Made by a program: the position numbers and the translations under genes
Shown here: positions 2,162 through 62,182 of the stretch, in pieces
Layout of the letters: each line of letters opens with the position of its first letter
Numbering within the stretch: position 1 is the first letter of the stretch
DNA from: an uncultured bacterium
GTDB lineage: Bacteria; Margulisbacteria; WOR-1; XYC2-FULL-46-14
Assembly: GCA_964421245.1 (NCBI GenBank)
Contig: CAYQVW010000002.1
Span: 280 to 64,279 of the forward strand
Reading direction: 5' to 3'
Length of the DNA stretch: 64,000 bases
Notes under the pieces: model-generated
What the model was told of the DNA's origin: nothing
The model's database searches: none
Seen by the model: the letters and a program-made list of their open reading frames with translations, nothing else

Positions 2162-2190
2162 TTTTCGTATACTATTTGGAAAAATTTCAC
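2162..2190 (-). promoter_or_regulatory. Orphan-regulon promoter motif, type A
   Basis: GTGAAATTT-ttccaaatagtata-CGAAAA upstream of the gene starting at 2047. Confidence 0.7.
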
Positions 2191-2202
2191 ACTATTTTTC
2201 TA

Positions 2203-4167
2203 TTAAACCTCTACTCTTCTTTTCGCCATAGCTGTATAAGCAATATACTGGGCAAGTTTTCTTGGATCACTATTAACAATTAATCCCCGAAAACTTTCTG
2301 GATCCTCTTGAGCTGAGTTAAAGATATGCAGTCCGGCATTTGTTATATTGTCATAAGAAACATCTTTCCCTGCATCATACCACTGTTCGGTCATAACCGG
2401 ATCATCTGTTAAAGGGTGCAAATGTACTGGAACCCCTTCCCTAAAAGCTGCCTTAGCATTAGGCACAACTCCCTTGTTTCCTTCAGCAGCATAACACAAA
2501 TCAAGTCTTAAGCCGATTGATCTCCCAGAATAAGCATCAGCATAAGCCTCGGGATTATTAGCTGTAAAAACATAAGAACCTGACTCTCTCGAGTCAGCTG
2601 AGACCCAAGGATAATATTCTGACCGGGAAACACCAAGTAGGCGAGCTCCTGTTTCGCCAAAAATTCTTATAAGCACCCCATCAACTCCTGTCTCGGAAAA
2701 ACCAAAGATTTGCCCAAGCTCGCTCAAAGGATAGTCAAGAGTTCGTAAGTGAAATTTCAGACTCCTCAAAAAGTCCTCAACAGCATCCATTTCCATAGGC
2801 CCATTCCCTTTATTATCTGTCTGACTCCTTCCTGTAACAGACATAATAAAAGAGGCACCAGCCATTAATTGCTGAACACTATGAATCGGTGAAGTAATAT
2901 CAGTAATCGCACTATGAACAGCTGCAACCTGTTCTGTATTTAAAGTTACTATTCCCTCACCCGGTTCAACAATAATAGGATTATCATAATCATCCTGCAG
3001 GGTTATAACTCTTCTCTCAACCTGACCAATAAATCCTTCGCTAAAAGCAGCCAGCTCCGGAACTTCTTCTGTTAATACACCAAAGGGCTCTTCTCCCTTG
3101 TTGGGAGCATGCGGAGCCAATTCAACATCTCCTTTTTCAGCTAAATGACCAAGAACTGTTTCTGCAACTTCCCCTACGTGTTGAGTCAAACCAGAAAGGG
3201 TCACAGCACCCATTGGATGAAAGGCTTCCTCTTCTATTCTAGTTTTTAAAAGATCGGTTCCTCCACAGAGCTCATAAACCTCCTGGGCTACTTCTTCTGG
3301 AGTTTTAACTATAGTAATTTGACGTTTAATCTTTGCCGGCGTCCATTTACCATCAGGATCTACTTCCTTTAAAAGTTTAATTAGAGTATTGATGGCCTCC
3401 GATTGCTCGTCCTGAAAATAAGTAACACAGTTCTCTAAACGACTAATACCATTAATTTCAGCATTATTACTAACTACAGAACCATAGGTAGGGATCTTAC
3501 GATCCAGGTACATTACTACTTGTCTACCCTGGGCCAAGGCATTAACAACATCAGAACTAAAGGCATAATTACCACCACCAATGCAAATTAAAACATCAGA
3601 GAAAGAAACACTGTCTCTAGAATAATTTTCTACAAAATGGATTCCTGGAATTGTAGCATCATTCCCAGCAATTAATCCCCGTTCTCCCATCATCCAGTCA
3701 TCAGTAAAGGCAATAACGGGGGTCTGCTACCTAAAAGCCACCTCGCGAACCTCTTTATCAACCGCCTGACCGGCAGTAGCGGAAGTCATAAGGGCAATAT
3801 CCTTTCCAGGAATAATCCCAACTCGTCTTAAACGGGAAAAAACATGATTAAAAATTCCATCTACCAAGTCACGAAAATAACGGTTTAGTCCTTCTTGTCT
3901 AAAGTTGGAATTACCAACTACTAATAACCTGGCTTTTACAGGAGCTAAAACTTGCTCAACCTGTTCTCTGGATATTTGTTTATCCGCCAACAATTCTTCG
4001 TTTGTCCTATAAGGAGCTACATCATCAGTTGATAAATTGGGTCGTAAAACACCTGCTTCATCCCAAATAAGCGGCCTAAACCGGCAAAGGGGGGTATACC
4101 TACTAGAATTGGTTCCAAAAACAGATGTTAACCTAGAAAACACTCCTGAACTTAACTGATTCCCCAT
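2203..4167 (-). pseudogene. Tandem SLOG/LOG-like Rossmann-domain protein interrupted by one in-frame TAG at 3727-3729
   Basis: ORFs 3727..4167 and 2203..3693 are in the same frame, joined by AFR*QTPVIAFTDDWMMG. Two similar units are visible (VVGNS..DVLICIGGG..ALAQGRQV and SVTGRS..CYAAEG..AFREGVPV). Confidence 0.6.
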
Positions 4168-4207
4168 TCTTATTCCTCCCTGAAAGTTTTTTTACTCTTC
4201 TACATAG

Positions 4208-4236
4208 TTATCGTCACTTCTTGCAAAAAATTTCAC
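4208..4236 (-). promoter_or_regulatory. Orphan-regulon promoter motif, type A
   Basis: GTGAAATTT-tttgcaagaagtga-CGATAA upstream of 4167. Confidence 0.75.
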
Positions 4237-4252
4237 TTCATTTTATTTTTGG

Positions 4253-4281
4253 GTGAAATTTATCTCTAATTCTATCGATAA
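4253..4281 (+). promoter_or_regulatory. Orphan-regulon promoter motif, type A (divergent partner)
   Basis: GTGAAATTT-atctctaattctat-CGATAA upstream of 4301. Confidence 0.75.
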
Positions 4282-4300
4282 TAATATAGGAGATAACAAG

Positions 4301-5975: not shown

Positions 5976-6004
5976 GTGAAATTTAAATTTTGTTTCGTCG
6001 ATAT
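5976..6004 (+). promoter_or_regulatory. Orphan-regulon promoter motif, type A
   Basis: GTGAAATTT-aaattttgtttcgt-CGATAT upstream of 6073. Confidence 0.75.
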
Positions 6005-6072: not shown

Positions 6073-7440
6073 ATGGGAATACCAGCAACTAACCGAAGAG
6101 CCATTCAAAGAGATCCGATTCGTGTTTTCAACGGATTGGCAGAGAGAGAAATCAGAAGTGCTATTATGCACCTCTTCTCAGTTTTGGTTCAAAGAGGTTG
6201 CTTGCAACGTTGCTGGGGCTGTCACGCAACATCCTACAGAACACCAACCAATGCAGATTGGGATAATACTGAATTACTTATAGATGGTACTGCCTCTGCA
6301 ATGAAAAAATTTGATGTTAAACCCTATCGTCCTTTAATCGAAGTATTTCGAGATAACGATCCTTCCTGGACCAGATTTCCAGATCGACCAGATTATGGCG
6401 TCGGAAATTTAGCACAAAGAATTCATGATAGGTGGGGCTTACCTTCAAAAATAATGACCTCTGGACTTCCATTTGATCAAGTCGATTTTATGCTTGATCA
6501 ATACAGAATCGGTATTCCCTATTTCTTTTCAACCGCAGTATCTGTCTCAATCCAAACTGGAAATTACCTTTTAGATATTGACCAAGATGTTAGGACCAGG
6601 GCAAGGCTAATTGATACCTTTATTGAACACAACCCATCCCACGTCCCAGCCTTTTTAGATATTATGTTTTATACACCAGAAGGAGATGATCCAAAAACAT
6701 TAGAAACAATTGCTCTGTTCAGAAAAATTGCGAAAGCAAGTCACCACCTCCCAAAAGATTTGGCCGATTTTGATTTTAATCAAGTTGACGGAAGCAAAAA
6801 TGATAAATTTATGGACAAAAGTAAGAGAGTCGGTATAAGAACCTCTCCGTTCCTTTCAATATCATCTTGGAGAGGTATTGTAACTGACGGTCAGAAATTA
6901 AACCAGGTACAAATTAGTGACTGGTTATCAATTTTTGAAGGAGAAGACGATATTGCTTTTAAAGTCGGAGATGAATACTATACCAGAAGTGAGCTAAAAG
7001 CAAATTTATATCGTAGATCTCTATTTATTGAGGCGCTAAGAGGACTTGCATCAGATAATGCAAGAGAAGCTGTTAGGAGATCGAAAGAACAAGCAGTACT
7101 ACACATAGAAGAAGCAAAATTAAAGTTGGAATCAGATGAAGAAGATAAAGTTGCAGCTGCACTAAGACAAATGGATAAAGGCATGAGTTTATTGAAAAAT
7201 GGAGACGGGAAAGCAGAAACAAATAGTTGGTTAGTTGGGCACGAAAAAATCCCGAGACTAGATGAAATATTTTGTACAGAATTTGATCTTACCCCTCCTA
7301 TCGTAAGCAACAGCTACAGAAAAGGACTGACTGAATGTGGTCTTCGTCTAGGCCCTGCTATCAACTTTATTGTTAGTAATATTGCTGGTGGAGAGTTGCA
7401 AGAAATTATCCCTTGGGTAAGACTAAATTTTGGAGAATAA
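6073..7440 (+). CDS. Radical-SAM-like hypothetical protein
   Basis: CxxxCxxC motif (GCLQRCWGCH) near the N-terminus; AGGAG RBS; remainder divergent. Confidence 0.55.
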   Translation: MGIPATNRRAIQRDPIRVFNGLAEREIRSAIMHLFSVLVQRGCLQRCWGCHATSYRTPTNADWDNTELLIDGTASAMKKFDVKPYRPLIEVFRDNDPSWTRFPDRPDYGVGNLAQRIHDRWGLPSKIMTSGLPFDQVDFMLDQYRIGIPYFFSTAVSVSIQTGNYLLDIDQDVRTRARLIDTFIEHNPSHVPAFLDIMFYTPEGDDPKTLETIALFRKIAKASHHLPKDLADFDFNQVDGSKNDKFMDKSKRVGIRTSPFLSISSWRGIVTDGQKLNQVQISDWLSIFEGEDDIAFKVGDEYYTRSELKANLYRRSLFIEALRGLASDNAREAVRRSKEQAVLHIEEAKLKLESDEEDKVAAALRQMDKGMSLLKNGDGKAETNSWLVGHEKIPRLDEIFCTEFDLTPPIVSNSYRKGLTECGLRLGPAINFIVSNIAGGELQEIIPWVRLNFGE

Positions 7441-7443
7441 AAG

Positions 7444-8391
7444 ATGCAAACTGCAGCAACAAACACGCGAGGACATCTTCCAGATAGACTCTCTATCCCC
7501 ATAATAAAAAATCCATTTGCTCGTCCTGGATTAGTTCAAAAAGAGCTTAGTAAAAGCACCCATACAAGGGTCCATTTATTAGAAGGCGGATATGTTCTCC
7601 GTTCCTATCTCCCAGAAGTTCGAGGTCCCTTGGTAGCCAATGTTATAGAAGTCTTTGATATGCAGGCGGAGGTCGGAGATCATCCTCGTATTGAAACCCC
7701 CATCTACGCTTATCAAGGAGAAGGGGAAGAACTACTTTTATCTGAATATAGGGAAGTTAGAAGCAATATAGTTTTAAGGCCAACAACATTAAATAAAATT
7801 CTTGGAGCTTTGTTACACATGGATATAAAAGGTGTGATGCACGGGGACCTAGGTGATTTTAATGTTGGAGAGGATCATAATGGAGATCCTTTTATTTATG
7901 ATTTTGACAAAGCCAGAAAGATTAATTGGAATAAACTAGACATTCATCCGGAGGTTATTGCATTTTTCTTTTTAAATCCATCAAGCACTGTTCAATCAGA
8001 ACCTTTTAACATAGATTTATTTCAAAATTTTATCCTCTTTGATCAATTTGTTGTGTTAGAAGAAGAAGGAAAAAGTGATGAAGCAAGAGGGCTTTATAAA
8101 CTCTTCCTACAACATTCAATTGGATATTTTTTAAAGCTAAAAGATACCCTATCGCTCTCACCAATTTACTCTACGGCTATAGACAAAAGAATAGCTGCCA
8201 TTAAAAAACTTCTAAATAACCCACTTCTTCTTCAATCTATTTATGATGACAAAATGCTCTCTACCTTTACAGTAGCACACAGTTGGGCTACCCGAGAAGT
8301 TGGCATAAATGGACGAACAGAATTAGTAGAATATCGTGATCTTGCAAAAAGAAGAATGGAAACGTGGATTTTAAGAAGAAGCCTTCTCTAA
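7444..8391 (+). CDS. Protein-kinase-like fold protein (RIO/Kdo/Ser-Thr-like)
   Basis: HGDLGDFN catalytic loop and YDFD Mg-binding motif. Confidence 0.7.
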   Translation: MQTAATNTRGHLPDRLSIPIIKNPFARPGLVQKELSKSTHTRVHLLEGGYVLRSYLPEVRGPLVANVIEVFDMQAEVGDHPRIETPIYAYQGEGEELLLSEYREVRSNIVLRPTTLNKILGALLHMDIKGVMHGDLGDFNVGEDHNGDPFIYDFDKARKINWNKLDIHPEVIAFFFLNPSSTVQSEPFNIDLFQNFILFDQFVVLEEEGKSDEARGLYKLFLQHSIGYFLKLKDTLSLSPIYSTAIDKRIAAIKKLLNNPLLLQSIYDDKMLSTFTVAHSWATREVGINGRTELVEYRDLAKRRMETWILRRSLL

Positions 8392-9039
8392 CACAATAAC
8401 CGCATTCCCTTTGCCCGTATAATTTTTATAAAAACTTGGGAACGGTCCTTCGGTTTCTGGATAATCTTGAATACCCAATATCCTAACTTCTTGACTCTCT
8501 TTTATTTTTTGAAAAATTCGAGAAGCGATTGCTTCTGGATCCGAATAGTCACCATCAATCTGTAAAACAGCTAATCCACCTGGCTTAATCCAACGCAGCC
8601 ACTCGTGCATCTGAACATCTAGGCCACTATCATCCTTCCAAATTGCTGGATTGGGATTAATAATAAATGCAACATCGTGTATTGGTTGATCTGGTTCAAG
8701 ATGGGAAATGCGTCTAAACTGCCACATCCAAGGAAATCTTACCAAAGCTCCCTCTTTTGCAAATAAATCTTCTAATTTAGCATGCATATCATGTTCTTCA
8801 ACCCCGGAGACAGAATAGCCCATTTGAGTAAGAATAAAAGGAAGAACCAAAATTGTCCCGTAGCCCCATATAATAGCCCTGGTTTCCTGCGGATTAAAAC
8901 CAAGATCATCAAATACTGCTTGTAAATTGTGAGTGTGTAAGAAATTCTCGGGAACTTTAGCATTCTCTCTTAAGCAAGAAGAGCTATAGAGACTAAATGG
9001 TTTGATCCAAAGAGCTCGCGCATTACTATAGGAAATCAT
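8371..9039 (-). CDS. Putative class I SAM-methyltransferase-like protein
   Basis: IIWGYGT motif I, VSGVE, and WIKPGGLAVLQ. Confidence 0.55.
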   Translation of the reverse strand: MISYSNARALWIKPFSLYSSSCLRENAKVPENFLHTHNLQAVFDDLGFNPQETRAIIWGYGTILVLPFILTQMGYSVSGVEEHDMHAKLEDLFAKEGALVRFPWMWQFRRISHLEPDQPIHDVAFIINPNPAIWKDDSGLDVQMHEWLRWIKPGGLAVLQIDGDYSDPEAIASRIFQKIKESQEVRILGIQDYPETEGPFPSFYKNYTGKGNAVIVLEKASS

Positions 9040-11639
9040 TCCCTTCCCTTAATATAATCGAGCTTTGGTTCAACTTCTTGACAATAACCTAAGAGAGTAC
9101 GAACTTTGTAGCCCAGCTCTGTTGCCTCGTCACTATCCGCCTCATTTCCTGTAAGAAGATAACGAAAATAGAACGCTTCAGCAAACATCGGATATATTTC
9201 AAGCAACTCTTCAATTCCGGACAAAAGAATCTGTTTGTCCATATCCTGATCTATTACATACCTGGTTAACAAATGATTTATCTTATAAAAGATATTATAC
9301 TCTTCCCGTTTAATTGCTCTCTCATAAGATTTAAGCGCTTCTTCATATTCACCCCGGGCAAAATGGATATCTCCCAGATTATTGTGTGCTTCAGCAAAAG
9401 AAGGATCAATTGTTCTAACAGCCTCAAAGATTTTTCTTTTTTGCTCCTGATCTTCTGTATGTTCTGTTGCTAAGCGACATAAAAAGAGTGCCAATATTTG
9501 TCGATTAGTTAATCTTCTAGCCTGTCGGCCAGAATCTTTTGCAACCACTCCTTTATCATTCACTTCATAATAGGTTTCAACTATATCATCAGAATAGGCC
9601 AGATCAACTGGGACTTCTTCTTCTGGATTAAATAAAGACAAAAAGGAATGATAAACATCTGTGTAATAATTAACCGGAAGACCAATTGCCCTCGAGAGGA
9701 AAAAATATACCAAACTCAAATTATTGCAATCTCCTACTGGTCCTTGATGTTTTGCAACACGTTTTAAACTCTCAACTAGTGGAAGATATTCTCGTGAAAA
9801 TGCTTCAGCATGGGGCAATGCAATAAACTTTTTGATCTTATAGGCTTTTTCTCTTAGAGATAGGCTGTCAAAATCGTCACCCAAGCTTTCTATAAATGGA
9901 GCTACAATTTGATTCTTTAATGTCTCTAAAGTTTGAGATAACTGATCAGTATCCTTTGAATATATTGCAAGCAGAGCTAAGGCAAGAGCAAAATCCTGTC
10001 CATATTCAATCCTAGTACTTTCAAATAAATTCAAAATCCTATTTGCGTCAGTTGCAATTCCAGCAACCGGTTCGGGGCTAATCTGGTCAGGAAAAACTAA
10101 TCTGCTTGTTCTTGGCTTACCCATTCTATCAAGAGCTAGATCAAAAAATCTGACAATATATTTGAGTGGATGGAATCGATCAATCAGTCGTTGATAAGCC
10201 GCTTCACCAACCTGATCAAGATCATCTCTGTCAGCAATCCTCTGGTAGGCGGCAGCCAACTCATCAGTTGTATCATGTTTTATGTAAAAACCGGAACGTC
10301 CATCTTCAACAGTACCAATCATTCCACTATGAGCATGAAGAAGAGGAACCTTGCGATGTGACATACCATCAAGAATCGCATTCCCCATCCCCTCCATCTT
10401 GGAGACATTAACCTGAACAGTCGCAACATTTTGGAAAGACTCGTTAAAAAGGCGATTACTACCAAAGCCCTCAAGTTTACCTGGAACAAAATAAATATAA
10501 ACATGTTTCTTTGTCTCATCATCAAGAGATTGATAAATAGCAAATAACTCTTCTACAAGAGGACCAATTGATTCTAATTCAACTGTATTGTTTAAGGCCG
10601 ATGGAGATGGCATCAGTAAAACTAAGGAAGTCTGAGTCATACCAGATGAATTCTGTTTCCAGGCCTGTGCATATGCTTTAAGGATAAGGTCCAAATTTTT
10701 TGTCGGATCAATCCGAGCTGCCTGATAGAACATAAGATGATCCTTAGGTGGACAGATCGGGCGTGATCGATCCGAAATCATTAACGGTCCTTCATGAATT
10801 CCCGGACTTGAATTAAAATCTTCAAATCGGTCAGTCGTTCCACCTTGAGCAAGAATTCTATCAATATTACTCCAAGCTTCTTCTACCGTCATCGGGCGAC
10901 AGTGTTCGTCAGCAAAATTATAAAATCCTCCCAGGCTTACTTCTCTTGAAGGATCCGTTATAAAACTAGGATGCAGGTGTTCGATTACATCCAAAGCATC
11001 ATAAATTCCAATTTGTCTTAAAAACTCCATTGCATTTTGATGATTGCGATCTTTCCATGTGTTTCCTATTCTCAAGTCTTCAATCAACATGCTTGGTTGA
11101 AAAGCACCGTGGCGAAGCGCCTTTGCCATGCCAATTACATTAACATCTAGCAATAAGACCTGATCTCCATCCTTCATTTTTGCAGCTTTTAGCAGCTGAC
11201 TAGTCGCTGCATCCATTGTCTGTTCAAAAAACCTTAGCTGCTGCTGAAAAAGAGAGAAATCCCGGTCAAGACCAATATCTTTTCCTCCATAGATTCCAAG
11301 ATAAAGATCAAAACAAATCTGGTGATATGCTCGGCTGGCTGGGTCATCTGCCAATTCCACGGTCCACCACTCAACAGGCATTTCCTGCTCTTGTAAAATC
11401 CCATAAAGGGTTCTAAACAGAAGTGAGCCGCCCAGGTTTTCACCGGCAATCCACGGATCTGAGACCATTACCAACCGGGCTCCTTCCGGCAGCCTAGCTT
11501 TCCAGTCGGTAATTTGTTCTGACATTGTTGACGTTAATCGAGAAAAAGTCCTGGGATCGGTTCGCTCCCCCAGCTTTTGAAGGCACGTCCGGTCATAAAC
11601 TGGAATTACTCTTCTAACAGTAGTACTTAAATTTGTCAT
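9036..11639 (-). CDS. GT-B/GT4 glycosyltransferase (TreT-like) fused to transglutaminase-like and TPR domains
   Basis: ARIDPTKN and EGMGNAILDGM GT4 motifs; GDCNNLS..YH..VD Cys-His-Asp triad; AEAHNNLGDIHFARGEYEEALKSYERAI TPR. Confidence 0.75.
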   Translation of the reverse strand: MTNLSTTVRRVIPVYDRTCLQKLGERTDPRTFSRLTSTMSEQITDWKARLPEGARLVMVSDPWIAGENLGGSLLFRTLYGILQEQEMPVEWWTVELADDPASRAYHQICFDLYLGIYGGKDIGLDRDFSLFQQQLRFFEQTMDAATSQLLKAAKMKDGDQVLLLDVNVIGMAKALRHGAFQPSMLIEDLRIGNTWKDRNHQNAMEFLRQIGIYDALDVIEHLHPSFITDPSREVSLGGFYNFADEHCRPMTVEEAWSNIDRILAQGGTTDRFEDFNSSPGIHEGPLMISDRSRPICPPKDHLMFYQAARIDPTKNLDLILKAYAQAWKQNSSGMTQTSLVLLMPSPSALNNTVELESIGPLVEELFAIYQSLDDETKKHVYIYFVPGKLEGFGSNRLFNESFQNVATVQVNVSKMEGMGNAILDGMSHRKVPLLHAHSGMIGTVEDGRSGFYIKHDTTDELAAAYQRIADRDDLDQVGEAAYQRLIDRFHPLKYIVRFFDLALDRMGKPRTSRLVFPDQISPEPVAGIATDANRILNLFESTRIEYGQDFALALALLAIYSKDTDQLSQTLETLKNQIVAPFIESLGDDFDSLSLREKAYKIKKFIALPHAEAFSREYLPLVESLKRVAKHQGPVGDCNNLSLVYFFLSRAIGLPVNYYTDVYHSFLSLFNPEEEVPVDLAYSDDIVETYYEVNDKGVVAKDSGRQARRLTNRQILALFLCRLATEHTEDQEQKRKIFEAVRTIDPSFAEAHNNLGDIHFARGEYEEALKSYERAIKREEYNIFYKINHLLTRYVIDQDMDKQILLSGIEELLEIYPMFAEAFYFRYLLTGNEADSDEATELGYKVRTLLGYCQEVEPKLDYIKGRE

Positions 11640-11645: not shown

Positions 11646-13085
11646 TTATTTAATCTCCAAAGTCGCAACCGCTCCGGTTCCAAAATAGTCCCCATCTGGG
11701 GTCTGTATATCAACATATTCTAAAGAACTCGAAAAATATCTTGCAATAGCTACTCCTCTATCAAGCCCCCCCTCCACATCAGAGTGAACTGTTTCTCGTC
11801 TAGTGCTAAGATGACTTTGCACCTCAGAATGTTCCCATCCCAGAAATCTATTTTTTGACCCATCACTTGGATGATAGGTACTATCTGTTCTATTAATCAC
11901 CCTAACAATTATTGTTTTTGATTGGGGATCGATTTTCCAGTCAAGATAAGCCCTGCGATTATTGCTATTATAATAAGCATTCTTTAATAATTCAAAAACT
12001 CCACAATGAAAAAATAAATCACTTCTCTCGTTCTCACCCAACACTCTCATTGCAAGTCTTGCAAGTTCAATAACAGGTTGATGCTCGTATATCGTTATGC
12101 GGTCATCCTCACAATCATTAAATCTAACCTTGCCCGCAAGCGCAGAAGAAAATAGCCTACTAGAATATTGTATCAATCCCATACTGCTACCTTCCAGAAA
12201 AGTTGCCCTTTGATACTCTTTTGGCCGGATAAGGAGCCTATCTTCTTGCAATGCCTGAATTGCAACTGCAACATCTGGAGCCATTGCAGCAAGAATTACC
12301 TCTCCAAAAAGCAGACTATTTTTCTCTACTATCTTTCTTGTGTTTTCTAGTATTGCCGCAATATCCTCGTACCCTTTGGTTGCGAGCAAAAGAGCAACAT
12401 GATAATTCAAGTCAAATTCTTTCGCAATATCTTCCGCACGTTCGTTCATCATGCTTGGCAATAGATGCTTCATCCTAAGCTCTTTAAAAAATGCAGGAGT
12501 CATAAACCCCTCTGGAATAGCACTAAAGGGAAGAATTACATTCAAATAAGAACGAACTGCTCTAGTAGAAATTTCGCTAGAATTAACTATTTTAATTAAA
12601 TCAGTAAAAGATACTCGAGATTCAGATAAATCCTTAAACATACTATATTCATTTCCAGAATATTTCTGTAAAAACTGATCTATTTCACTCTCTACAACTC
12701 CAAATTCCAGAGCCAGCCAGCTAAGATATCTTTCCGGTCTATCCGAAACAGACAAACCACTTACCCTATTCCAAAAATAATTACAACAGGCTTGATTTTG
12801 AACTTGAGTAAGTTTTACCTCTTCTGGAACAGCTACAGTAACAATTGATCCATTTCTTGTGAATCTTAGCTGCAATTCTAATAGTTCTCGAGTTACCTCT
12901 CCCGTCAGTCCTGTGAATTCGTGAAGTTCCTCCATTTCCCCATCATTATTGGCAACAACAGAAATAGAAGAGCCAACTGGTATAACCGAAATTTTATTTC
13001 CAACAACATTAAGTCTTTGTGCTCTTCCCATTGTCAGGTCGGCACGACCAACTACACTCCATTTATTTGATACTGGTTTACTCAT
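11646..13085 (-). CDS. Hypothetical protein with C-terminal HATPase_c (anti-sigma-kinase-like) domain
   Basis: ELLKNAY N-box and GGLDRGVAIARYF G2-like box. Confidence 0.55.
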   Translation of the reverse strand: MSKPVSNKWSVVGRADLTMGRAQRLNVVGNKISVIPVGSSISVVANNDGEMEELHEFTGLTGEVTRELLELQLRFTRNGSIVTVAVPEEVKLTQVQNQACCNYFWNRVSGLSVSDRPERYLSWLALEFGVVESEIDQFLQKYSGNEYSMFKDLSESRVSFTDLIKIVNSSEISTRAVRSYLNVILPFSAIPEGFMTPAFFKELRMKHLLPSMMNERAEDIAKEFDLNYHVALLLATKGYEDIAAILENTRKIVEKNSLLFGEVILAAMAPDVAVAIQALQEDRLLIRPKEYQRATFLEGSSMGLIQYSSRLFSSALAGKVRFNDCEDDRITIYEHQPVIELARLAMRVLGENERSDLFFHCGVFELLKNAYYNSNNRRAYLDWKIDPQSKTIIVRVINRTDSTYHPSDGSKNRFLGWEHSEVQSHLSTRRETVHSDVEGGLDRGVAIARYFSSSLEYVDIQTPDGDYFGTGAVATLEIK

Positions 13086-13093: not shown

Positions 13094-13122
13094 TTATCGT
13101 ACAAAATGGGGGTAAATTTCAC
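13094..13122 (-). promoter_or_regulatory. Orphan-regulon promoter motif, type A (leaderless spacing)
   Basis: GTGAAATTT-acccccattttgta-CGATAA, with the ATG 8 nt downstream. Confidence 0.75.
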
Positions 13123-13133: not shown

Positions 13134-14678
13134 TTATTTTTTCCGAATATAAACTTTTTCTATATTGAGGAAAAGACCGCCTGGACCCGGTTTTGACAAT
13201 CCACCCACCCTATCCCTGACTCCGGATATAACCTTTGGATACCAAAGAAATATATAGGGTTGGTCCTCGGAAATTATTCGATTAAGCTTGGCGTAGACTA
13301 ATTTGCGGGTTTTGCGGTCCATTGTAACCCTACCCTTTTCAATCAGACGATCAACTTCCTTATTATGATAGCCGATAAAATTAAATCCACGTGGATATTG
13401 AGTCGAATGCCAAATGGAAAACTGATCCGGATCAAGTCCAAGCGACCACCCCATCAGCACTGCATCAAAATCCTTCGGCCCTTTTGGTGCATTTACAATT
13501 TTTAACATCGCCGACCACTCCATCACCCGAATATTCATCTTTACACCGACTTTTTTATACTGTTGTTGAAGAATAATGGCAGCTTTCTCTCTGTTTTTAT
13601 TTCCTTGATTAAGCAAAACCGTAAATTCAAAACCTTTTTCATATCCAGCTTTTTTTAGCATCGCTTTTGCCAAAGTTGGATTATATGGGAACTTCTGTAC
13701 ATCCTCTGAATAGGCCCACGAGATTGGAGCCTCTGGAGCATAAGCCGGTGTTCCGTGACCCCGCAAAACTAAACCGACTAACTGTTTTTTGTTGGTTGCA
13801 TAAGCTAGGGCTCGTCTTACATTTCTATTTTTAAAAATTGGATGTTTGATATTAAAACCAAGATAAGTATAAATTAATCCATCATACTCATAGACATTTA
13901 AGCCTTTGGTAGACTTCATGCGAGAATAATCTTTAAACGGAATCCCAGCCTCATCTACCTCCCCCGCTTCCAACGCGATTAGGGAGGCGTTTTCATTCGG
14001 GATTACTTTATATATTATTTCTTTCAATAGCGGCTTGGTGCCAAAATATTTATCGTTGCGAATCAGCCTGGCATAGTGTCCCTTTTTCCACTCGGCAAAC
14101 TTAAAGGGGCCGGTTCCAATCGGTTTTCTATTAAATTCGGCAGTATTTATATCTTTACCCGCTAATAGATGCTTGGGAAGAATCCCTATTCCTATCCGGG
14201 AAAGGAACGGAGCAAATGGTTTTGGAAGAATTGCCTGTATTGTATATTTATTTTTAACTCCAAACCCTATCGGCTTTCCATCAATAATATAGCTACTTCG
14301 ACGGACCGAATTTACCTTTGGATTTAAAATAGTATCAAAAGTAAACTTTACGTCATGGGCAGTAAAGGGCTTCCCGTCATGCCACAGAACATCATCACGC
14401 AAATTAAAGGTCCAAGTCTTCCCATCAGAAGAAACCTTCCAAGATTTTGCAAGGTTGGGGATTATTTCAAGCTTTTCGTTTATTTTTGTAAGGCCATTAA
14501 AGATCGGTCCTTCAACCGAGCTAGAAGAGGTATCGGTTGAGAGGATCGGATTTAAAATCGATACTTCTCCACCAAGGGTAAAGGTGAGTTGCCCATTGGG
14601 ATCAAAATCTGCTGCTGTGGCGGCCGCACACAGCAACAAACTACATATTAGTAAGCTCCAAAATTTTTGTTTTGCCAT
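13134..14678 (-). CDS. ABC transporter peptide/nickel-binding protein (SBP family 5)
   Basis: Signal peptide; LAKSW..DGKTWTFNLRDDVLWHDGKPFTAHDVKFT; PIGTGPF. Confidence 0.92.
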   Translation of the reverse strand: MAKQKFWSLLICSLLLCAAATAADFDPNGQLTFTLGGEVSILNPILSTDTSSSSVEGPIFNGLTKINEKLEIIPNLAKSWKVSSDGKTWTFNLRDDVLWHDGKPFTAHDVKFTFDTILNPKVNSVRRSSYIIDGKPIGFGVKNKYTIQAILPKPFAPFLSRIGIGILPKHLLAGKDINTAEFNRKPIGTGPFKFAEWKKGHYARLIRNDKYFGTKPLLKEIIYKVIPNENASLIALEAGEVDEAGIPFKDYSRMKSTKGLNVYEYDGLIYTYLGFNIKHPIFKNRNVRRALAYATNKKQLVGLVLRGHGTPAYAPEAPISWAYSEDVQKFPYNPTLAKAMLKKAGYEKGFEFTVLLNQGNKNREKAAIILQQQYKKVGVKMNIRVMEWSAMLKIVNAPKGPKDFDAVLMGWSLGLDPDQFSIWHSTQYPRGFNFIGYHNKEVDRLIEKGRVTMDRKTRKLVYAKLNRIISEDQPYIFLWYPKVISGVRDRVGGLSKPGPGGLFLNIEKVYIRKK

Positions 14679-15051
14679 CTCTTTTATAACCAGTTATTGT
14701 ATATGCTCCTGTCATATTATTATAATCGTAAACAATCTTTCCTGCTACATCAGAATCCGTGTATGCTTTTCCCGTAAATGGATTTTGAGGAATTGTTGTC
14801 ATATAATTACCCACTTTTAAGTAATTGTTGACCAAAGATTCTACTCCAATACTGGTTGCAATTGGAAAAGTATTGTTTTCTATATTATAGCCTTCTACCG
14901 AAAGATGAACAGAGTGCATAACCGACTTTATTGCTCCCTCTTTTGCCTTGTCTTGCGATCCAAGCAAATGCGGAACCATAAAATAAGCCAGTAATCCAAT
15001 TATCGCAATTACTACAAGCATCTCAATTAACGTAAATCCTTTTCGTCTCAT
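14641..15051 (-). CDS. Type IV pilin / type II secretion pseudopilin
   Basis: MRRKG-FTLIEMLVVIAIIGLLA prepilin cleavage motif. Start set at the ATG at 15051, after an AGGAGG RBS. Confidence 0.9.
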   Translation of the reverse strand: MRRKGFTLIEMLVVIAIIGLLAYFMVPHLLGSQDKAKEGAIKSVMHSVHLSVEGYNIENNTFPIATSIGVESLVNNYLKVGNYMTTIPQNPFTGKAYTDSDVAGKIVYDYNNMTGAYTITGYKRDGKTKILELTNM

Positions 15052-15072
15052 AGATCTCACCTCCTTTCCTCT

Positions 15073-15103
15073 AAGGTTCAAGTTCCAAGGGGCAAGGGTC
15101 AAG
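15073..15103. repeat. Degenerate heptamer array downstream of four-helix-bundle gene 1
   Basis: AAGGTTC AAGTTCC AAGGGGC AAGGGTC AAG. Confidence 0.7.
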
Positions 15104-15474: not shown

Positions 15475-15503
15475 CCTGCCCCTTGACCCTTACTACTTGG
15501 CAC
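15475..15503. repeat. Degenerate heptamer array, inverted relative to the 15073 array
   Basis: CCTGCCC CTTGACC CTT..CTTGGCA; units are reverse complements of AAGGGGC/AAGGGTC. Confidence 0.7.
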
Positions 15504-21083: not shown

Positions 21084-21112
21084 ATTTCGGATAGTTTTTA
21101 ATAAAATTTCAG
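21084..21112 (-). promoter_or_regulatory. Orphan-regulon promoter motif, type A (leaderless spacing)
   Basis: CTGAAATTT-tattaaaaactatc-CGAAAT, with the ATG 7 nt downstream. Confidence 0.7.
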
Positions 21113-23674: not shown

Positions 23675-23703
23675 ATATCGTCAATTTTGGGCTAAAATTT
23701 CAC
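23675..23703 (-). promoter_or_regulatory. Orphan-regulon promoter motif, type A
   Basis: GTGAAATTT-tagcccaaaattga-CGATAT upstream of 23660. Confidence 0.75.
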
Positions 23704-43130: not shown

Positions 43131-43159
43131 ATATCGTAATAAAGGATGAATAACTTGCA
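43131..43159 (-). promoter_or_regulatory. Orphan-regulon promoter motif, type B
   Basis: TGCAAGTT-attcatcctttatta-CGATAT. Confidence 0.75.
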
Positions 43160-46330: not shown

Positions 46331-46359
46331 ATATCGCATTAACTTGCACAAAACTTGCA
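46331..46359 (-). promoter_or_regulatory. Orphan-regulon promoter motif, type B
   Basis: TGCAAGTT-ttgtgcaagttaatg-CGATAT. Confidence 0.75.
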
Positions 46360-48252: not shown

Positions 48253-48281
48253 CTATCGGGATGGGGGGGAGAAAACTTGCA
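48253..48281 (-). promoter_or_regulatory. Orphan-regulon promoter motif, type B
   Basis: TGCAAGTT-ttctcccccccatcc-CGATAG. Confidence 0.75.
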
Positions 48282-50964: not shown

Positions 50965-52004
50965 GGATAAACAGCGAGCTTGTTCAAGCCATCTGTCTCA
51001 TCAAATCCACACATTAGATTCATGTTTTGAACCGCCTGCCCTGCTGCTCCTTTTATTAGATTATCAATTACCGACATTACAATTACAGTATTAGTCGTTT
51101 CATTGTAAGCAACTGAAATATCACAATAATTTGTATTGCTAACATATTTTGTACAAGGCTCGGAATCTATGACCCTAACAAACGGCGCATCTTTATAGAA
51201 TTTTTTATATAGTTCCATAATTTTTAATTTGTCATTTTTAATTTTTAATTTAGCATATATGGTAGCAAGTATTCCCCTGGTCATCGGCATTAAGTGGGGC
51301 ACAAAAGTAACTTTGGCTCCCTGATCTCCTGATATCCTGATAACCTGATGCCCTATCTCCCCCATATGGCGGTGATTAGTAACCGCGTAAGGCATTACTC
51401 CCTCATTGCGCTCGCAAAATAGGGTGATCTGTTTTGCTCCACGCCCTGCTCCAGAGATTCCAGATTTTGCATCTATCATTATGCTTGTCAAATCAATAAG
51501 CTTGTTTTTAATAAGTGGAGCTAATCCTAAAATACTTGCTGTTGGATAACAGCCCGGGTTGCCAATTAATTGGGCTTTTTTAATTTTCTCTTTATAGAGC
51601 TCTGGAGAACCAAAAACCGCCATTTTAAAGGCCTCTTTGTCTGGATGTTCAAGTTGGTACCATTTTTTAAAAATAGCCTCATCATCAAAACGATAATCGG
51701 CTCCAAGGTCAACAACTTTCTTCCCTGCTTTAATTATCTTTGGAACATAATTTAGGGCTATCCCATGAGGAAGAGCTAAAAAGACCAAATCAATAGAGGA
51801 TAAATTTTTATCCAAATCTTCTAAAACCAAACATTTCAAATTACATAATCCATTTAGCTGTGGGTATAATTCTGAAATACTCTTTCCCTTATGTGCTGGC
51901 TCAGACATCAACCATTTAACTTCAACCTGCACATGCTTCAAAAGAATCGATAATAAATTAACCCCCGCATACCCCCCTGCTCCAATTATTCCTACTTTTA
52001 TCAT
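50961..52004 (-). CDS. argC: N-acetyl-gamma-glutamyl-phosphate reductase
   Basis: [22 protein letters not shown] and [14 protein letters not shown]. Confidence 0.97.
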
Positions 52005-61300: not shown

Positions 61301-61690
61301 GTGAATCTCGTCACATACATGATCTAAATCAAGAGCATATTGCGTACTGTTAGTAAAACGTGCAGCCCTAACAATTAAACGGGTATGGTCAAGCTTTTGA
61401 AGATCTTCCGCCTCGGCTATCATCTCTCGTAATGCAAAGCGATGCATAAGCCAAGTAGTATTTATTCTAACCGGTTTAGCCGCCACATTTATAAGCTTCT
61501 GATCTTCTGCCTGATCTAGAATCCCTCGAAAGATATCCATCTCTGGATCAGTAAGTAGGGCTAATCTTCTGCAAGAGAGTCCATCTGTATAATAGCGAGG
61601 ACCTAATTTATTGTTTACTTTTCTGTAGTTTAATCCGCTGTATGTATAAGACAAAATTGATTTGAAAAAAGAACCAATTTTAATTGCCAT
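58370..61690 (-). CDS. Orphan N-terminus + LuxD-like alpha/beta hydrolase + SAM methyltransferase fusion
   Basis: AYGKRKETY..LAQYL..NG..VLRYDDSNSVGESDG and IPFSLA nucleophile elbow; VDFGAGTGN and EMVRMTRKGGRVV. Confidence 0.8.
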   Translation of the reverse strand: MAIKIGSFFKSILSYTYSGLNYRKVNNKLGPRYYTDGLSCRRLALLTDPEMDIFRGILDQAEDQKLINVAAKPVRINTTWLMHRFALREMIAEAEDLQKLDHTRLIVRAARFTNSTQYALDLDHVCDEIHSALVSQQTTMPAAPEEAPQLAPAQPLVPLGVGEGLSASGRTDTILRGMVELSEVFSGLTDRTEIFQTVRRIFHRDRDLVSLKEQLAAVEVTILVPDGDGKWRIDVPERGMRTAFENRFLATAWGQTYLEGAPPDEVLRSFLHGHEVASGVFDKDIPFQVEHLNLNNPSDCPAYESDFAVAHLDQFEGSPEMGVVVMSSTARDFKSHTDAIILFHNRQCSLRTDLGSPLPVETQQFRYHLLFERAAQALQRVRTAEEKMRITSEQSAVTPLPTESEKPKSKGPGWFSWSNLSLKAMTAYYAIKAGITRSNPDEGVALVRFENASGQTIVGIADPPENVRKGERAPWVIVPPAYGKRKETYFLLAQYLTKNGIGVLRYDDSNSVGESDGEIENLTLSQSRRNIDAAIDYVERNCRAGSIGLIPFSLATTPAIVAAKEDQRVQFLDVVVGAPNVEDLLTRVWGANLVEAYRLGHRREGLINVLGFPIRGDEFLNDAISGKFTNFELMCKHLAELEIPIVWHLGEDDPWVNRQEVSEALREKPEGQMRDRHVVPGLGHKFREAEKAQEVFAEIVRSVRKMCGMERASVVAPTKAEVVEKAVYERGRIKEVVTKEQSVRNWRSYLVEGFDILLETAEYRQLMDDQFHAVGFQPGETLVDFGAGTGNSELSLAAKLIDTHPIQAIGGKVVALDLVEDALGMALDKWERAESKCPHLPELEAHSMDLDISPLRSMLDHLEGRIEYEDFSARFPDLRLPENPQVQTRKNIKKLIRGQIKLEEGWVYGTCDPASIQDLDLAARFLRGELIEEDLNESGREKGLDYKTLSCADLNFKRLDLGEVGRTTRLDFADESADKTLGSLFLSYLDNPEEVVSEMVRMTRKGGRVVLSSLLPDADLSRIFSNYLNGVIAATDPGPERESRLQEGRNLLNNALSWIEHSEESGLFKYYTPEELRQLLEDRGCRDVEVKISFGGQAVIVSGTPT

Positions 61691-61715
61691 TTTTTATTCC
61701 ACATATTTCCTTGTT

Positions 61716-62090
61716 TTAAGCCGCTGCCCTTTCTTGAACAGGAACAAGACCATCTCCCCTAAGGTGATTCATTCCATTAAGAAAATGAAGTCTTAAGGTT
61801 TTCCCCTCATAACAAGTCTTTAGATCACTTACAGTCAACCTGCTAAAATCTATTTCAGCCAGAGAACTTTTACAAAGGACCTTTGCCTCTGGATCAACTA
61901 ATCCTCTCTCAATTGCATCATTAATTCTAGAACAAAGGAGCCTTAAATCACTAGAATTAAGACTTGCCACACGAGCCTTGGCAAGAAGCCCAAATTGAAG
62001 TCCTCCTAAAGCAGAACCAATAAAGGCTATATTCCCCTCTGGGATATTTCCTATTTTTCCTACTATGCTTATCGCTGTTAGTGTAATCAT
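61716..62090 (-). CDS. Hypothetical protein (124 aa)
   Basis: ORF preceded by two regulon motifs; lies directly upstream of the fusion gene. Confidence 0.55.
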   Translation of the reverse strand: MITLTAISIVGKIGNIPEGNIAFIGSALGGLQFGLLAKARVASLNSSDLRLLCSRINDAIERGLVDPEAKVLCKSSLAEIDFSRLTVSDLKTCYEGKTLRLHFLNGMNHLRGDGLVPVQERAAA

Positions 62091-62108
62091 TTCATTCCAC
62101 CTAATTAT

Positions 62109-62137
62109 ATATCGTCAATTACTATAAAAAATTTCAC
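62109..62137 (-). promoter_or_regulatory. Orphan-regulon promoter motif, type A
   Basis: GTGAAATTT-tttatagtaattga-CGATAT. Confidence 0.75.
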
Positions 62138-62153
62138 CTAACTTTACATTTAT

Positions 62154-62182
62154 TCTTCGGCCTATATTTTCAAAAATTTCAG
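62154..62182 (-). promoter_or_regulatory. Orphan-regulon promoter motif, type A (tandem second copy)
   Basis: CTGAAATTT-ttgaaaatataggc-CGAAGA. Confidence 0.6.

What the first reader, a model, noticed from the sequence alone, without database searches (positions are those of the whole stretch)
2162..62182. A fixed-spacing promoter-like motif marks every orphan transcription unit: a hidden alternative-sigma regulon of putative effectors
Seen: 12 copies of a bipartite motif, always on the sense strand just upstream of an orphan or chimeric gene unit. The form (G/C)TGAAATTT-N14-CGA occurs at 2162, 4208, 4253, 5976, 13094, 21084, 23675, 62109 and 62154. The form TGCAAGTT-N15-CGATA occurs at 43131, 46331 and 48253. 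The common core is AA(A/G)TT-N15-CGA, with invariant spacing and unrelated spacers. I saw none before housekeeping genes, several of which carry TATAAT-type -10 boxes instead. Known: sigma28/FliA promoters are TAAAGTTT-N11-GCCGATAA, which is similar but not identical. Inference: a dedicated sigma factor switches on a dispersed set of lineage-specific proteins (kinase, nuclease, nucleotidase, glycosyltransferase, hydrolase-methyltransferase, SecA giant), plausibly host- or prey-directed effectors or a developmental programme.
Basis: partly seen in the sequence, partly recalled or inferred. Interest (0 to 1): 0.92.

Follow-up and report, generated by a model that had tools for sequence, protein, structure and literature searches.

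The report
FliA-type promoters marking orphan genes
A very sharply defined promoter signal, of the kind read by flagellar (sigma-28) sigma factors, sits in front of about 230 mostly lineage-specific genes in an uncultured marine bacterium that keeps a flagellar export machine but no filament or motor, which hints at a large programme of exported proteins.

Summary
Genome-wide the main form (class 1, sTGAAATTT-N14-CGATA) has 230 sites, 220 of them sense-upstream. In 53 of them a start codon lies exactly 10 nt after the CGA, which implies leaderless mRNAs. A second form (class 2, CAAGTTT-N14-CGATA) has about 43 sites. Both sit in the register of sigma-28 promoters.

The genome is a Margulisiibacteriota MAG, WOR-1/Saganbacteria-like. 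The motif occurs across the phylum (57 of 61 genomes).

The orphan link holds. Only 31 of 214 class-1 genes have a homolog in a same-class genome, against 127 of 175 genes behind TGnTATAAT promoters. But "every orphan unit" is an overstatement: 38-52% of orphans are covered, and rpoD also carries the motif.

Two FliA-like sigmas are the candidate readers. These genomes keep flagellar type III export genes, but no flagellin, FliG C-domain or MotB was found. Class-1 proteins lack signal peptides and have polar, acid-poor N-termini. Export of these proteins is plausible but unproven. No transcription start or sigma assignment was tested.

The parts
2165..2190 (-). class-1 promoter (GTGAAATTT-N14-CGA), PWM score 39.5; next gene 1088-2047 (319 aa, no Pfam family)
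   Evidence: the gene has only 10 relatives among 1.84 billion representatives
4211..4236 (-). class-1 promoter, score 35.5; unit 3727-4167 (146 aa) and probably 2203-3693 (496 aa), both without a Pfam family
4253..4278 (+). class-1 promoter, score 30.7, divergent from the previous one; gene to 5971 (5'-nucleotidase / metallophosphatase)
5976..6001 (+). class-1 promoter, score 25.7; unit 6073-7440 (455 aa) and 7444-8391 (315 aa), no Pfam family
13097..13122 (-). class-1 promoter, score 27.5; unit 11646-13085 (479 aa, no Pfam), then 9036-11639 (GT1 + TPR) and 8371-9039
21087..21112 (-). class-1 promoter, score 31.3; gene 20084-21076 (330 aa) starts 1 nt after the predicted +1 (leaderless); no Pfam family
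   Evidence: the word-based search found only the protein itself
23678..23703 (-). class-1 promoter, score 38.1; gene 21114-23660 (848 aa, no Pfam family)
62112..62137 (-). class-1 promoter, score 38.9, proximal of a tandem pair; gene 61716-62090 (124 aa, no Pfam family)
62157..62182 (-). class-1 promoter, score 36.3, distal of the tandem pair before 61716-62090
43132..43159 (-). class-2 promoter (TGCAAGTT-N15-CGATA), score 39.7; giant gene 31221-43028 (3935 aa, SecA DEAD-like domain at residues 1657-1989)
46332..46359 (-). class-2 promoter, score 32.0; gene 43219-46251 (1010 aa, no Pfam family)
48254..48281 (-). class-2 promoter, score 38.6; gene 46402-48198 (598 aa, no Pfam family)

Best explanation
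The motif is the promoter of an alternative, FliA/sigma-28-family sigma factor, not of the housekeeping RpoD. In class 1, sTGAAA acts as the -35 element. A 17-nt spacer follows, then CGATAT as the -10 element, and transcription is inferred to start at the conserved purine 10 nt after the A of CGA. This gives leaderless or very short-leader mRNAs in this genome. Class 2 has the same -10 element and the same register but a CAAGTTT -35 element.

Together the two classes head roughly 250 units, at least 13% of the ORFs. These units mostly encode fast-evolving, lineage-specific proteins without signal peptides.

The regulon is wired to a flagellum-derived type III export apparatus in which no flagellin, FliG C-domain or MotB was found, and many of the orphan proteins may be its substrates (about 35%). 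The confidence given here is for the core claim only: an alternative-sigma promoter class of the FliA type that governs a mostly lineage-specific gene set.
For: Promoter behaviour. There are 230 PWM sites with a bimodal score distribution, 220 of 230 sense-upstream, on 33 of 34 contigs. The start codon lies exactly at the predicted +1 in 53 of 230, against 8-13 at each of the next three positions; position +1 is a purine in 215 of 230.

Distinct from housekeeping promoters. 0 of 38 tRNA/tmRNA genes carry the motif. TGnTATAAT has 256 sites and heads conserved genes, 127 of 175.

Sigma-28 likeness. The P. aeruginosa fliC promoter is (-36)TCTAAAG(-30) and (-15)GCCGATAA(-8), with A-11 flipped out (PMC12784957, passages read). 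That puts TAAAG 23 nt before the flipped A, exactly as GAAAT (class 1) and CAAGT (class 2) lie before the A of CGA. In flagellated relatives, 4 of 18 flagellin loci examined show TAAAG..(C)CGA(A/T)AA in the same register.

Sigmas. The 198-aa sigma has FliA_WhiG as its best NCBIfam hit and FliA/WhiG as its best PDB hits. It was found in 60 of 61 phylum genomes and lies directly after flhA in 3 of the 5 genomes checked. A 245-aa FliA-like sigma lies inside the flagellar cluster.

Phylum-wide motif: 57 of 61 genomes against controls of 0-2.

Orphan link: with Pfam hits in 8 of 28 class-1 genes against 15 of 19 others.

Export link. FlhA, FlhB, FliPQR, FliMN, FlgD/E and FliK are present. No Flagellin_N/C, FliG_C or MotB_plug was found in the in-class genomes tested, while flagellated relatives have them. 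Class-2 promoters head the flagellar operons in G000 and G023. Class-1 proteins have a hydrophobic N-terminus in 4% against 23% of all ORFs. Their first 25 residues hold 5.1% D+E against 11.0%, and 45.8% small or polar residues against 36.8%.
Against: There is no transcription-start or expression data; no RNA run was listed.

The 198-aa sigma scores below the FliA_WhiG cut-off (83 against 189.6 bits) and no region 3 is detected. Its gene has no class-1 site upstream in G000. Only 3 of 12 loci have weak sites there (scores 6-13, below threshold). One genome with 18 exact motif hits gave no match to this sigma, and four genomes with zero hits do have it.

The 245-aa FliA was not found in the G000 assembly, nor were FliF, FliH, FliI, FlgI or the FlgB, FlgC and FliE rod proteins, so the apparatus is incomplete as assembled. 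The conserved GC 'extended -10' of sigma-28 promoters is absent.

31 of 214 class-1 genes are conserved, rpoD among them. About half of the orphans have no such promoter.

Export rests on composition and gene content only. The N-terminal bias could partly reflect overall composition (K 0.67x and R 1.28x over the whole proteins).
Confidence: 0.8

Rival explanations
1. The regulon is real, but its products stay inside the cell. It would be a stress, stationary-phase or developmental programme run by a FliA/WhiG-type sigma, as WhiG runs sporulation in Streptomyces and sigma-28 runs late genes in Chlamydia. The flagellar remnant would be unrelated to it.
For: The targets include ordinary cytoplasmic-type enzymes and rpoD: aromatic amino-acid lyase, RNB, histidine phosphatase, a SPASM protein. 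No signal peptides were seen. Sigma-28-family factors with non-flagellar regulons are known (PMC12871210 and PMC4893696, search listing and abstract starts only).
Against: 86% of the targets lack a homolog in a same-class genome, a turnover typical of surface or host-interaction genes rather than of a core developmental programme. The N-terminal 25 residues are specifically acid-poor and polar. The sigma gene is physically linked to flhA.
Confidence: 0.4
2. The motif is read by another sigma-like protein of this genome and not by a FliA-type sigma. Candidates are the long proteins with sigma regions 2 and 4 (C6 760 aa, C18 637 aa, C14 662 aa) and the small C32 region-4 protein.
For: Several extra proteins with sigma region 4, and in one case region 2, exist. 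The C6 protein itself sits behind a leaderless class-1 promoter, as an autoregulated sigma might. With two promoter classes, more than one reader is possible.
Against: The motif is phylum-wide. The conservation of the long proteins was not tested. Their domain scores are weak (29.5 and 21.3 bits). The motif's sequence and register match sigma-28 promoters.
Confidence: 0.12
3. It is a variant housekeeping (RpoD) promoter, or simply the genome's main promoter.
For: The geometry is sigma-70-like: a hexamer, 17 nt, a hexamer, then 7 nt to +1. sTGAAA shares 4 of 6 positions with TTGACA. 230 sites is a large number.
Against: RpoD here is a standard group-1 sigma, about 70% identical to Firmicute SigA over regions 2-4. 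tRNA genes and conserved genes use TGnTATAAT. The -10 element has an invariant CG where sigma-70 needs TA. The targets are a sharply different gene set.
Confidence: 0.04
4. It is not a promoter. It could be the operator of a DNA-binding regulator, or a dispersed repeat carried along with mobile or duplicated genes.
For: The information content is very high for a promoter. Some sites occur in tandem (62112 and 62157; C3:3750 and 3786).
Against: The motif is bipartite with unrelated spacers and no conserved flanks beyond an A-rich stretch. Its orientation is strict and its distance to start codons is fixed. The 228 downstream proteins fall into 205 unrelated clusters. The GC content of the target genes is like the rest of the genome (38.9% against 37.7%).
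Confidence: 0.04

Closest known systems
Sigma-28 (FliA / SigD / WhiG) promoters, e.g. P. aeruginosa fliC: TCTAAAG ... GCCGATAA (PMC12784957, passages read)
   Same: The core -10 element CGATAA is the same. The distance from the -35 A-tract to the flipped A is the same (23 nt), and the start lies about 10-11 nt after that A. The flagellin genes of flagellated members of the same phylum carry the canonical form in this register.
   Different: The -35 element is sTGAAATTT (class 1) or ATgCAAGTTT (class 2) instead of TAAAG. There is no conserved GC extended -10 element. There are about 270 sites instead of a few dozen. The targets are non-flagellar orphans. About a quarter are leaderless in G000.
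Sigma-28-dependent non-flagellar proteins exported by the flagellar type III system of Campylobacter jejuni (PMC2764114 and PMC5223770: search listing and abstract starts only)
   Same: A flagellar sigma and flagellar export gate would be used for proteins that are not flagellar parts, with an N-terminal export signal and no Sec signal peptide.
   Different: C. jejuni has a handful of such substrates and a complete, motile flagellum. Here there are hundreds of candidate genes, no filament or motor genes were found, and export is untested.
Flagellin-less flagellar basal bodies of Buchnera, and the remnant flagellar T3SS of non-flagellated Lysobacter enzymogenes (PMC8109811 and PMC7688988: listing and abstract starts only)
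   Same: Export-gate and basal-body genes are retained without flagellin, and a secretion role is proposed.
   Different: Those systems have no known large dedicated sigma regulon of orphan genes. Here the state is shared by a whole class (17 of 18 genomes without Flagellin_N), with FliG cut down to about 154 aa in G023.
Origin of the non-flagellar T3SS (injectisome) from the flagellum (Abby and Rocha 2012, PMC3459982: listing and abstract start only)
   Same: Loss of motility parts from a flagellar ancestor while the export core is kept.
   Different: The genes kept here are flagellar in type (FliK, FlgD, FlgE, FlgI, FlgB/C, FliE). Secretin, needle and translocon were not examined, so this is not a member of the injectisome family on present evidence.
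Chlamydial sigma-28 late-gene regulon (recalled; PMC4893696 seen only in a listing)
   Same: A FliA-family sigma is kept by a non-motile lineage and used for non-flagellar genes.
   Different: The chlamydial regulon is small (recalled) and its promoters are close to the canonical consensus.

Membership tests
sigma-28/FliA-type promoter | Core -10 element CGATAA with the A of CGA about 10-11 nt before the start | tested here: met
   CGA was fixed by the seed. The following positions were free and came out T 101/146, A 130/146, T/A, A 116/146. The start is inferred from the start codon at +10 in 53 of 230 sites and a purine there in 215 of 230. No experimental start is available.
sigma-28/FliA-type promoter | -35 element TAAA(G) 23 nt upstream of the flipped A | tested here: inconclusive
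   The register is identical, but the sequence is GAAAT (class 1) or CAAGT (class 2), which match TAAAG at 3 and 2 of 5 positions in that register.
sigma-28/FliA-type promoter | GC extended -10 element (GCCGATAA) | tested here: not met
   The two positions before CGA show no C or G preference (A 66, C 32, G 19, T 29 and A 42, C 13, G 50, T 41 of 146).
sigma-28/FliA-type promoter | Heads late flagellar genes (flagellin, hook-associated, motor) | tested here: not met
   No flagellin, FliG_C or MotB_plug was found in the in-class genomes tested. Class 2, not class 1, heads the fliK-flhA operon.
FliA/WhiG sigma family (198-aa sigma) | Score above the curated cut-off of TIGR02479 | tested here: not met
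   83.1 bits against a cut-off of 189.6. It is still the best-scoring family. The 245-aa paralog of G023 also falls short, at 135.1 bits.
FliA/WhiG sigma family (198-aa sigma) | [quoted passage not shown] | tested here: not met
   Pfam finds regions 2 and 4 only, with 40 residues between them. The PDB profile search matches FliA in two stretches.
FliA/WhiG sigma family (198-aa sigma) | Closest solved relatives are FliA/WhiG | tested here: met
   The top 7 of 11 PDB hits are FliA, sigma-28 or WhiG (9wsf, 9wsm, 6pmi, 6pfv, 6pfj, 7lq4, 1rp3).
FliA/WhiG sigma family (198-aa sigma) | Linked to flagellar genes and to an anti-sigma factor (FlgM) | tested here: inconclusive
   The gene lies directly after flhA in G023, G007 and G001 but not in G000 or G011. 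A conserved 52-74-aa ORF abuts the sigma gene in 9 of 12 loci, but it matches no FlgM or other family. Binding could not be tested.
Flagellar type III export apparatus | Export gate FlhA, FlhB, FliP, FliQ, FliR | tested here: met
   All five are on G000 contig C25.
Flagellar type III export apparatus | MS ring, ATPase complex and rod (FliF, FliH, FliI, FlgB/C, FliE) | tested here: inconclusive
   They are present in G023 but not found in the G000 assembly. Contig C7 ends where the cluster begins in G023's gene order. Runs that hold the window contain a contig collinear with the G011 cluster, of 10,271 nt in X3 and 8,185 nt in X1.
Motile flagellum | Flagellin, FliG torque domain, MotB | tested here: not met
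   Flagellin_N 0 of 6, Flagellin_C 0 of 5, FliG_C 0 of 6 and MotB_plug 0 of 4 in-class genomes. The positive controls in flagellated relatives and in the named control genomes gave matches.
Non-flagellar T3SS (injectisome) | Secretin SctC, needle, translocon | not tested
   No search was made for these parts.
ECF sigma promoters | AAC in the -35 element and CGT in the -10 element | tested here: not met
   The consensus is GAAATTT and CGATA. The ECF consensus is recalled, not taken from a call.

The most novel reading that the evidence does not exclude
A whole class of Margulisiibacteria (WOR-1/Saganbacteria-like) has turned the flagellum into a motor-less, filament-less type III secretion machine. 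This would be independent of the injectisome. The ancestral FliA circuit, now split into two sigma paralogs and two promoter classes, would drive first the machine (class 2) and then hundreds of rapidly turning-over substrate proteins (class 1). These include eukaryote-like kinases, phosphatases, nucleases and EF-hand proteins, which would mark these uncultured bacteria as cell-associated (host- or prey-directed) rather than free-living fermenters.
Probability: 0.3. Interest if true: 0.92.

Novelty: new variant of a known kind. Interest (0 to 1): 0.8.

Why it matters
Nothing on transcription signals in this candidate phylum was found in the library searched. Here one sequence rule predicts the start, and in G000 often the exact first codon, of about 230 genes. 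It also splits the genome into a conserved housekeeping part and a fast-evolving part. That gives a ready-made list of candidate secreted or interaction proteins for organisms that cannot be grown. It links that list to a flagellar remnant shared by a whole class. It also makes an open question directly testable: how flagella become secretion systems, and what non-motile lineages do with FliA. Searches of the held library found nothing on this. Supplements could not be read and may hold gene lists that bear on it.

Tried and rejected
Complex prediction, to test the 198-aa sigma against the abutting small ORF as a possible anti-sigma, never ran. There is no result either way.

Structure prediction of the 319-aa orphan was not accepted.

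No RNA holder was listed for the window, so there is no expression or start data.

Autoregulation of the 198-aa sigma has weak support only: 3 of 12 loci, all below threshold.

A separate canonical TAAAG...CGAWAW regulon was looked for in G000 and G023. It gave only 5-6 scattered, unconvincing sites.

A regex for class-1/2 sites found nothing in the G011 cluster stretch. The operon start may lie outside the piece fetched.

The idea that missing sigma region 3 explains the missing GC element was dropped. The arginine that reads GC in P. aeruginosa FliA appears to align with a conserved arginine in the 198-aa sigma.

A sigma-54 reading of class 2 (TGCA as a -12 box) was rejected, because no conserved GG lies 10 nt upstream.

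A link to Marinamargulisbacteria, which include the intracellular Trichoplax symbiont (PMC6784892, passages read), was considered. The sigma's close relatives are labelled WOR-1/Saganbacteria, so that paper is context for the phylum only.

The motif literature search returned only unrelated papers.

Full report
**1. The observation**

All 12 copies exist. STGAAATTT-N14-CGA has 9 exact matches in the window against 0.03 expected, and 0 of 100 shuffles reached 9. TGCAAGTT-N15-CGATA has 3 matches against 0.00 expected. Each copy lies between ORFs, on the strand of the next ORF downstream. The loose common core AARTT-N15-CGA is weak: 19 matches against 6.07 expected.

**2. The organism and the genome-wide picture**

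The window is contig C2:280-64279 of a 1.75-Mb, 34-contig genome, G000, which is 95.4% complete. Its RpoD is closest to Candidatus Margulisiibacteriota MAGs, at 79% and 76%. Close relatives of its small sigma are labelled WOR-1, Saganbacteria or Margulisbacteria. Eight DNA runs from marine or seawater metagenomes, in two studies, hold the window.

The exact core TGAAATTT-N14-CGA occurs 146 times in the genome, and 140 of these are sense-upstream of an ORF. My gene set is a crude longest-ORF caller with a minimum of 80 aa, giving 1631 ORFs.

A weight matrix iterated from these sites finds 230 sites at score 14 or more, and only 11 sites between scores 10 and 14. Of the 230, 220 are sense-upstream. 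They lie on 33 of 34 contigs. The extended consensus is aAAATaa..sTGAAATTTTT-(spacer)-CGATAtAaAtaTA, with no information in the spacer. I call this class 1.

Class 2 has the consensus ATgCAAGTTTT...CGATAaAT..gTA. It has 43 sites at score 15 or more, and the three TGCAAGTT copies of the window are among them. The two classes share the -10 element and the register: an 8-mer, 14 nt, then CGA.

**3. It behaves as a promoter with a fixed start**

I took the first start codon with an ORF of 50 aa or more after each site. That codon begins exactly 10 nt after the A of CGA in 53 of 230 sites (52 ATG, 1 GTG). The next four positions have 8, 9, 13 and 6. A second cluster lies at 11-14 nt (32 sites), preceded by purine-rich Shine-Dalgarno-like sequence. 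In all, 211 of 228 start within 60 nt. The position 10 nt after the A of CGA is a purine in 215 of 230 sites, and TA occupies that step in 119 of 230.

So the geometry is sTGAAA, 17 nt, CGATAT, 6 nt, then +1. Many mRNAs in G000 would be leaderless. This is inferred from sequence only; no RNA run was available.

In the relative G023 the same motif has longer, Shine-Dalgarno-bearing leaders. The leaderless habit is therefore specific to the G000 lineage.

**4. It is not the housekeeping promoter**

None of 38 tRNA/tmRNA genes has a class-1 site within 400 nt. In the 100 nt upstream of these genes, 10 have TATAAT and 6 have TGnTATAAT. TGnTATAAT occurs 256 times in the genome, 182 of them sense-upstream. 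Only 4 of the 180 genes behind it also have a class-1 site.

RpoD is a standard group-1 sigma with regions 1.2, 2, 3 and 4, and it sits next to dnaG.

**5. The link to orphan genes holds, but not for every orphan**

I fetched the whole single contig of G023, a genome of the same class and a different family, and compared proteomes.

| Gene set in G000 | With a G023 homolog (E <= 1e-5) |
|---|---|
| Class-1 genes | 31 of 214 |
| All other ORFs | 931 of 1417 (odds ratio 0.088, p 4e-47) |
| Genes behind TGnTATAAT, also first in their units | 127 of 175 (p 2e-32 against class 1) |
| Class-2 genes | 7 of 32 |

The mirror test gives the same bias. G023 has 82 sites and 75 class-1 genes, and 15 of these 75 have a G000 homolog against 996 of 1528 others (p 7e-15). 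Among 781 reciprocal best pairs, 14 carry the motif in G000 and 8 in G023, and 2 carry it in both.

Pfam results:
- In the window, 1 of 8 class-1 first genes has a family, the 5'-nucleotidase.
- The two class-2 genes of 1010 and 598 aa have none, and the 3935-aa giant has a SecA DEAD-like domain.
- Of 9 other window ORFs scanned, 6 have a family. The 3 without one lie downstream inside class-1 units. I did not scan the remaining window ORFs.
- In a random sample outside the window (pool: 80-900 aa), 7 of 20 class-1 genes have a hit: aromatic lyase, weak EF-hand, SPASM, RNB, Pkinase, a carbohydrate-binding domain and histidine phosphatase. Among other ORFs, 9 of 10 have a hit.
- Pooled, 8 of 28 against 15 of 19 (p 0.001).

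Two window orphans found only themselves in the word-based search of 5.8 billion proteins. A full HMMER search of 1.84 billion representatives with one of them gave 10 hits, the best non-self at 50%, 40% and 39% identity. These are therefore small, narrow families rather than artefacts.

The 228 class-1 proteins fall into 205 clusters. The largest cluster has 8 members of mostly about 295 aa; the one member scanned is a protein kinase.

Limits of the claim:
- Of 351 ORFs of 250 aa or more without a G023 homolog, 117 have their own class-1 site and 17 a class-2 site. 184 lie in units headed by one, by a crude rule.
- Conserved genes, rpoD among them, also carry class-1 sites.

**6. What reads it**

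G000 encodes these sigma or sigma-like proteins:
- RpoD.
- A sigma-54.
- A 198-aa sigma with regions 2 and 4, whose best family is FliA_WhiG at 83 bits, below the cut-off of 189.6.
- Several long proteins with weak sigma domains.

A profile of the 198-aa sigma and 11 orthologs has FliA, sigma-28 and WhiG as its best solved relatives. This sigma was found in 60 of 61 sampled genomes of the phylum. The exact class-1 pattern was found in 57 of 61, against control counts of 0-2. The highest counts are G000 127, G011 70, G049 52 and G023 45.

In G023, G007 and G001 the gene lies directly after flhA. It is abutted upstream by a conserved ORF of 52-74 aa in 9 of 12 loci. That ORF matches no family and is a candidate partner. 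The binding test could not be run.

A second, more canonical FliA-like sigma of 245 aa (135 bits, full-length match) lies inside a flagellar cluster of G023. It was found in all 17 other genomes of the class, but not in the G000 assembly. G000's contig C7 ends exactly where that cluster begins in G023's gene order. Runs that hold the window contain a contig collinear with the G011 cluster in four patches, one of them inside this sigma gene. The absence therefore looks like an assembly or binning gap. That is an inference.

**7. Register compared with sigma-28**

In the P. aeruginosa fliC open complex the elements are (-36)TCTAAAG(-30) and (-15)GCCGATAA(-8), with A-11 flipped out (PMC12784957, passages read). 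TAAAG thus starts 23 nt before the flipped A. GAAAT of class 1 and CAAGT of class 2 lie at the same distance from the A of CGA.

I examined 18 flagellin loci from flagellated members of the phylum. Four show TAAAG...(C)CGA(A/T)AA in the same register; the others showed nothing convincing with my pattern.

The GC extended -10 element is not conserved in class 1 or class 2.

Which of the two FliA-like sigmas reads which class is open. One self-consistent pairing assigns the 245-aa FliA to class 2 and the 198-aa sigma to class 1:
- Class 2 heads both flagellar clusters in G023, including the one that holds the 245-aa sigma, and it heads fliK-flhA in G000.
- A class-1-like site precedes the 198-aa sigma's operon in G023, G027 and G055. 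These are 3 of 12 loci, with scores of 6-13, below threshold.

Data against a simple story:
- G022 has 18 exact hits but no match to the 198-aa sigma.
- Four genomes with zero hits do have that sigma.

**8. The flagellar remnant**

G000 contig C25 carries fliK, flgD, a short flgE-like gene, fliM, fliN, an unassigned ORF, fliP, fliQ, fliR, flhB and flhA.

G023 adds a FliK-like protein, FlgF/G-like rods, FlgA, FlgI, FlgB, FlgC, FliE, FliF, FliH, FliI and a 154-aa protein. That protein matches only the N-terminal and middle part of FliG.

Results for the motility parts in genomes of the class:

| Family | Matches in genomes of the class |
|---|---|
| Flagellin_N | none in 17 of 18 (a weak one in G035); also none in G049, outside the class |
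| Flagellin_C | 0 of 5 |
| FliG_C | 0 of 6 |
| MotB_plug | 0 of 4 |

Flagellated families of the same phylum, and the tool's named control genomes, gave matches. On this evidence the class keeps a flagellar-type export core and basal body without filament or torque parts. A missing match in incomplete genomes is not proof of absence.

**9. Do the products look exported?**

A hydrophobic N-terminus is found in 4% of 228 class-1 proteins against 23% of all 1631 ORFs.

For the first 25 residues I compared 209 class-1 proteins with 266 controls. The controls were non-motif ORFs with an ATG start and a Shine-Dalgarno-like motif. Both sets were restricted to non-hydrophobic N-termini. The results:
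- Small or polar residues: 45.8% against 36.8% (p 4e-18).
- D+E: 5.1% against 11.0% (p 1.5e-22). Over the whole proteins, D and E are about equal in the two sets.

This resembles type III export signals as I recall them. It is suggestive only. No search for an injectisome-type secretin, needle or translocon was made.

**10. Verdict**

It is a phylum-wide, sigma-28-like promoter system that splits this genome into a conserved housekeeping part and a fast-evolving part. It is physically and logically tied to a flagellar remnant.

The sigma assignment, the transcription starts and export are inferences.

In the library searched I found nothing on flagellar genes, type III secretion, sigma factors or this motif in Margulisbacteria or Saganbacteria. 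Supplements were closed and may hold gene inventories.

Noticed in passing
G000 contigs C11 (before tRNA-Arg tcg), C14 (tRNA-Thr ggt), C29 (tRNA-Glu ctc), C1 (tRNA-Thr tgt), C9 (tRNA-Asn); also C32:8786 and window about 51321-51344 (+): Tandem 8-nt repeats CTGATAnn, 3-5 copies, lie directly upstream of five tRNA genes. The 3-or-more-copy regex found five places in the genome (three of them before tRNA genes). They may be a tRNA-specific promoter or regulatory array.
   Followed up: partly
window 31221-43028 (-): A 3935-aa protein whose only recognisable part is a SecA DEAD-like plus preprotein-binding segment at residues 1657-1989. It sits behind a class-2 promoter and has only a weak homolog in G023 (8e-13).
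   Followed up: partly
G000 C6:1981-4263 (-), C18:5134-7047 (-), C14:23406-25394 (+): Three long proteins (760, 637 and 662 aa) carry sigma-70 region 4 (and region 2 in C18) in their C-terminal half, behind large unknown N-terminal parts. The C6 protein has a leaderless class-1 promoter.
   Followed up: partly
G000 C27:9152-9198: rpoD has a class-1-like promoter (score 23.4) inside the 3' end of dnaG. The alternative sigma may therefore feed back on the housekeeping sigma.
   Followed up: no
G023 L111:11722-12186 (+): Between fliF and fliH lies a 154-aa protein that matches only the N-terminal and middle part of FliG (positions 36-196 of 316). The torque-generating C-domain is missing.
   Followed up: partly
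G000 C3:73142, C4:88488, C4:91532, C5:18580, C11:33145, C21:6540, C21:7534, C32:10881: A family of eight proteins, seven of 290-315 aa and one of 530 aa, all behind class-1 promoters and mostly leaderless. The one member scanned (L243) is a eukaryote-type Ser/Thr protein kinase (Pkinase, 104 bits).
   Followed up: partly
window 15099-15458 (-): A 23S rRNA intervening-sequence protein / bAvd-like gene sits inside a pilus or type II secretion-like gene row (pilin with N-methyl motif at 14641-15102, GspF/PilC-like at 15503-16534).
   Followed up: no
L095:1282-1494 (+) and orthologs: A conserved small protein of 52-74 aa (motif G-L/I-P-P-x-L-R/Q-x-x-W-x-F) is translationally coupled to the 198-aa sigma gene in 9 of 12 genomes. 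It matches no known family.
   Followed up: partly
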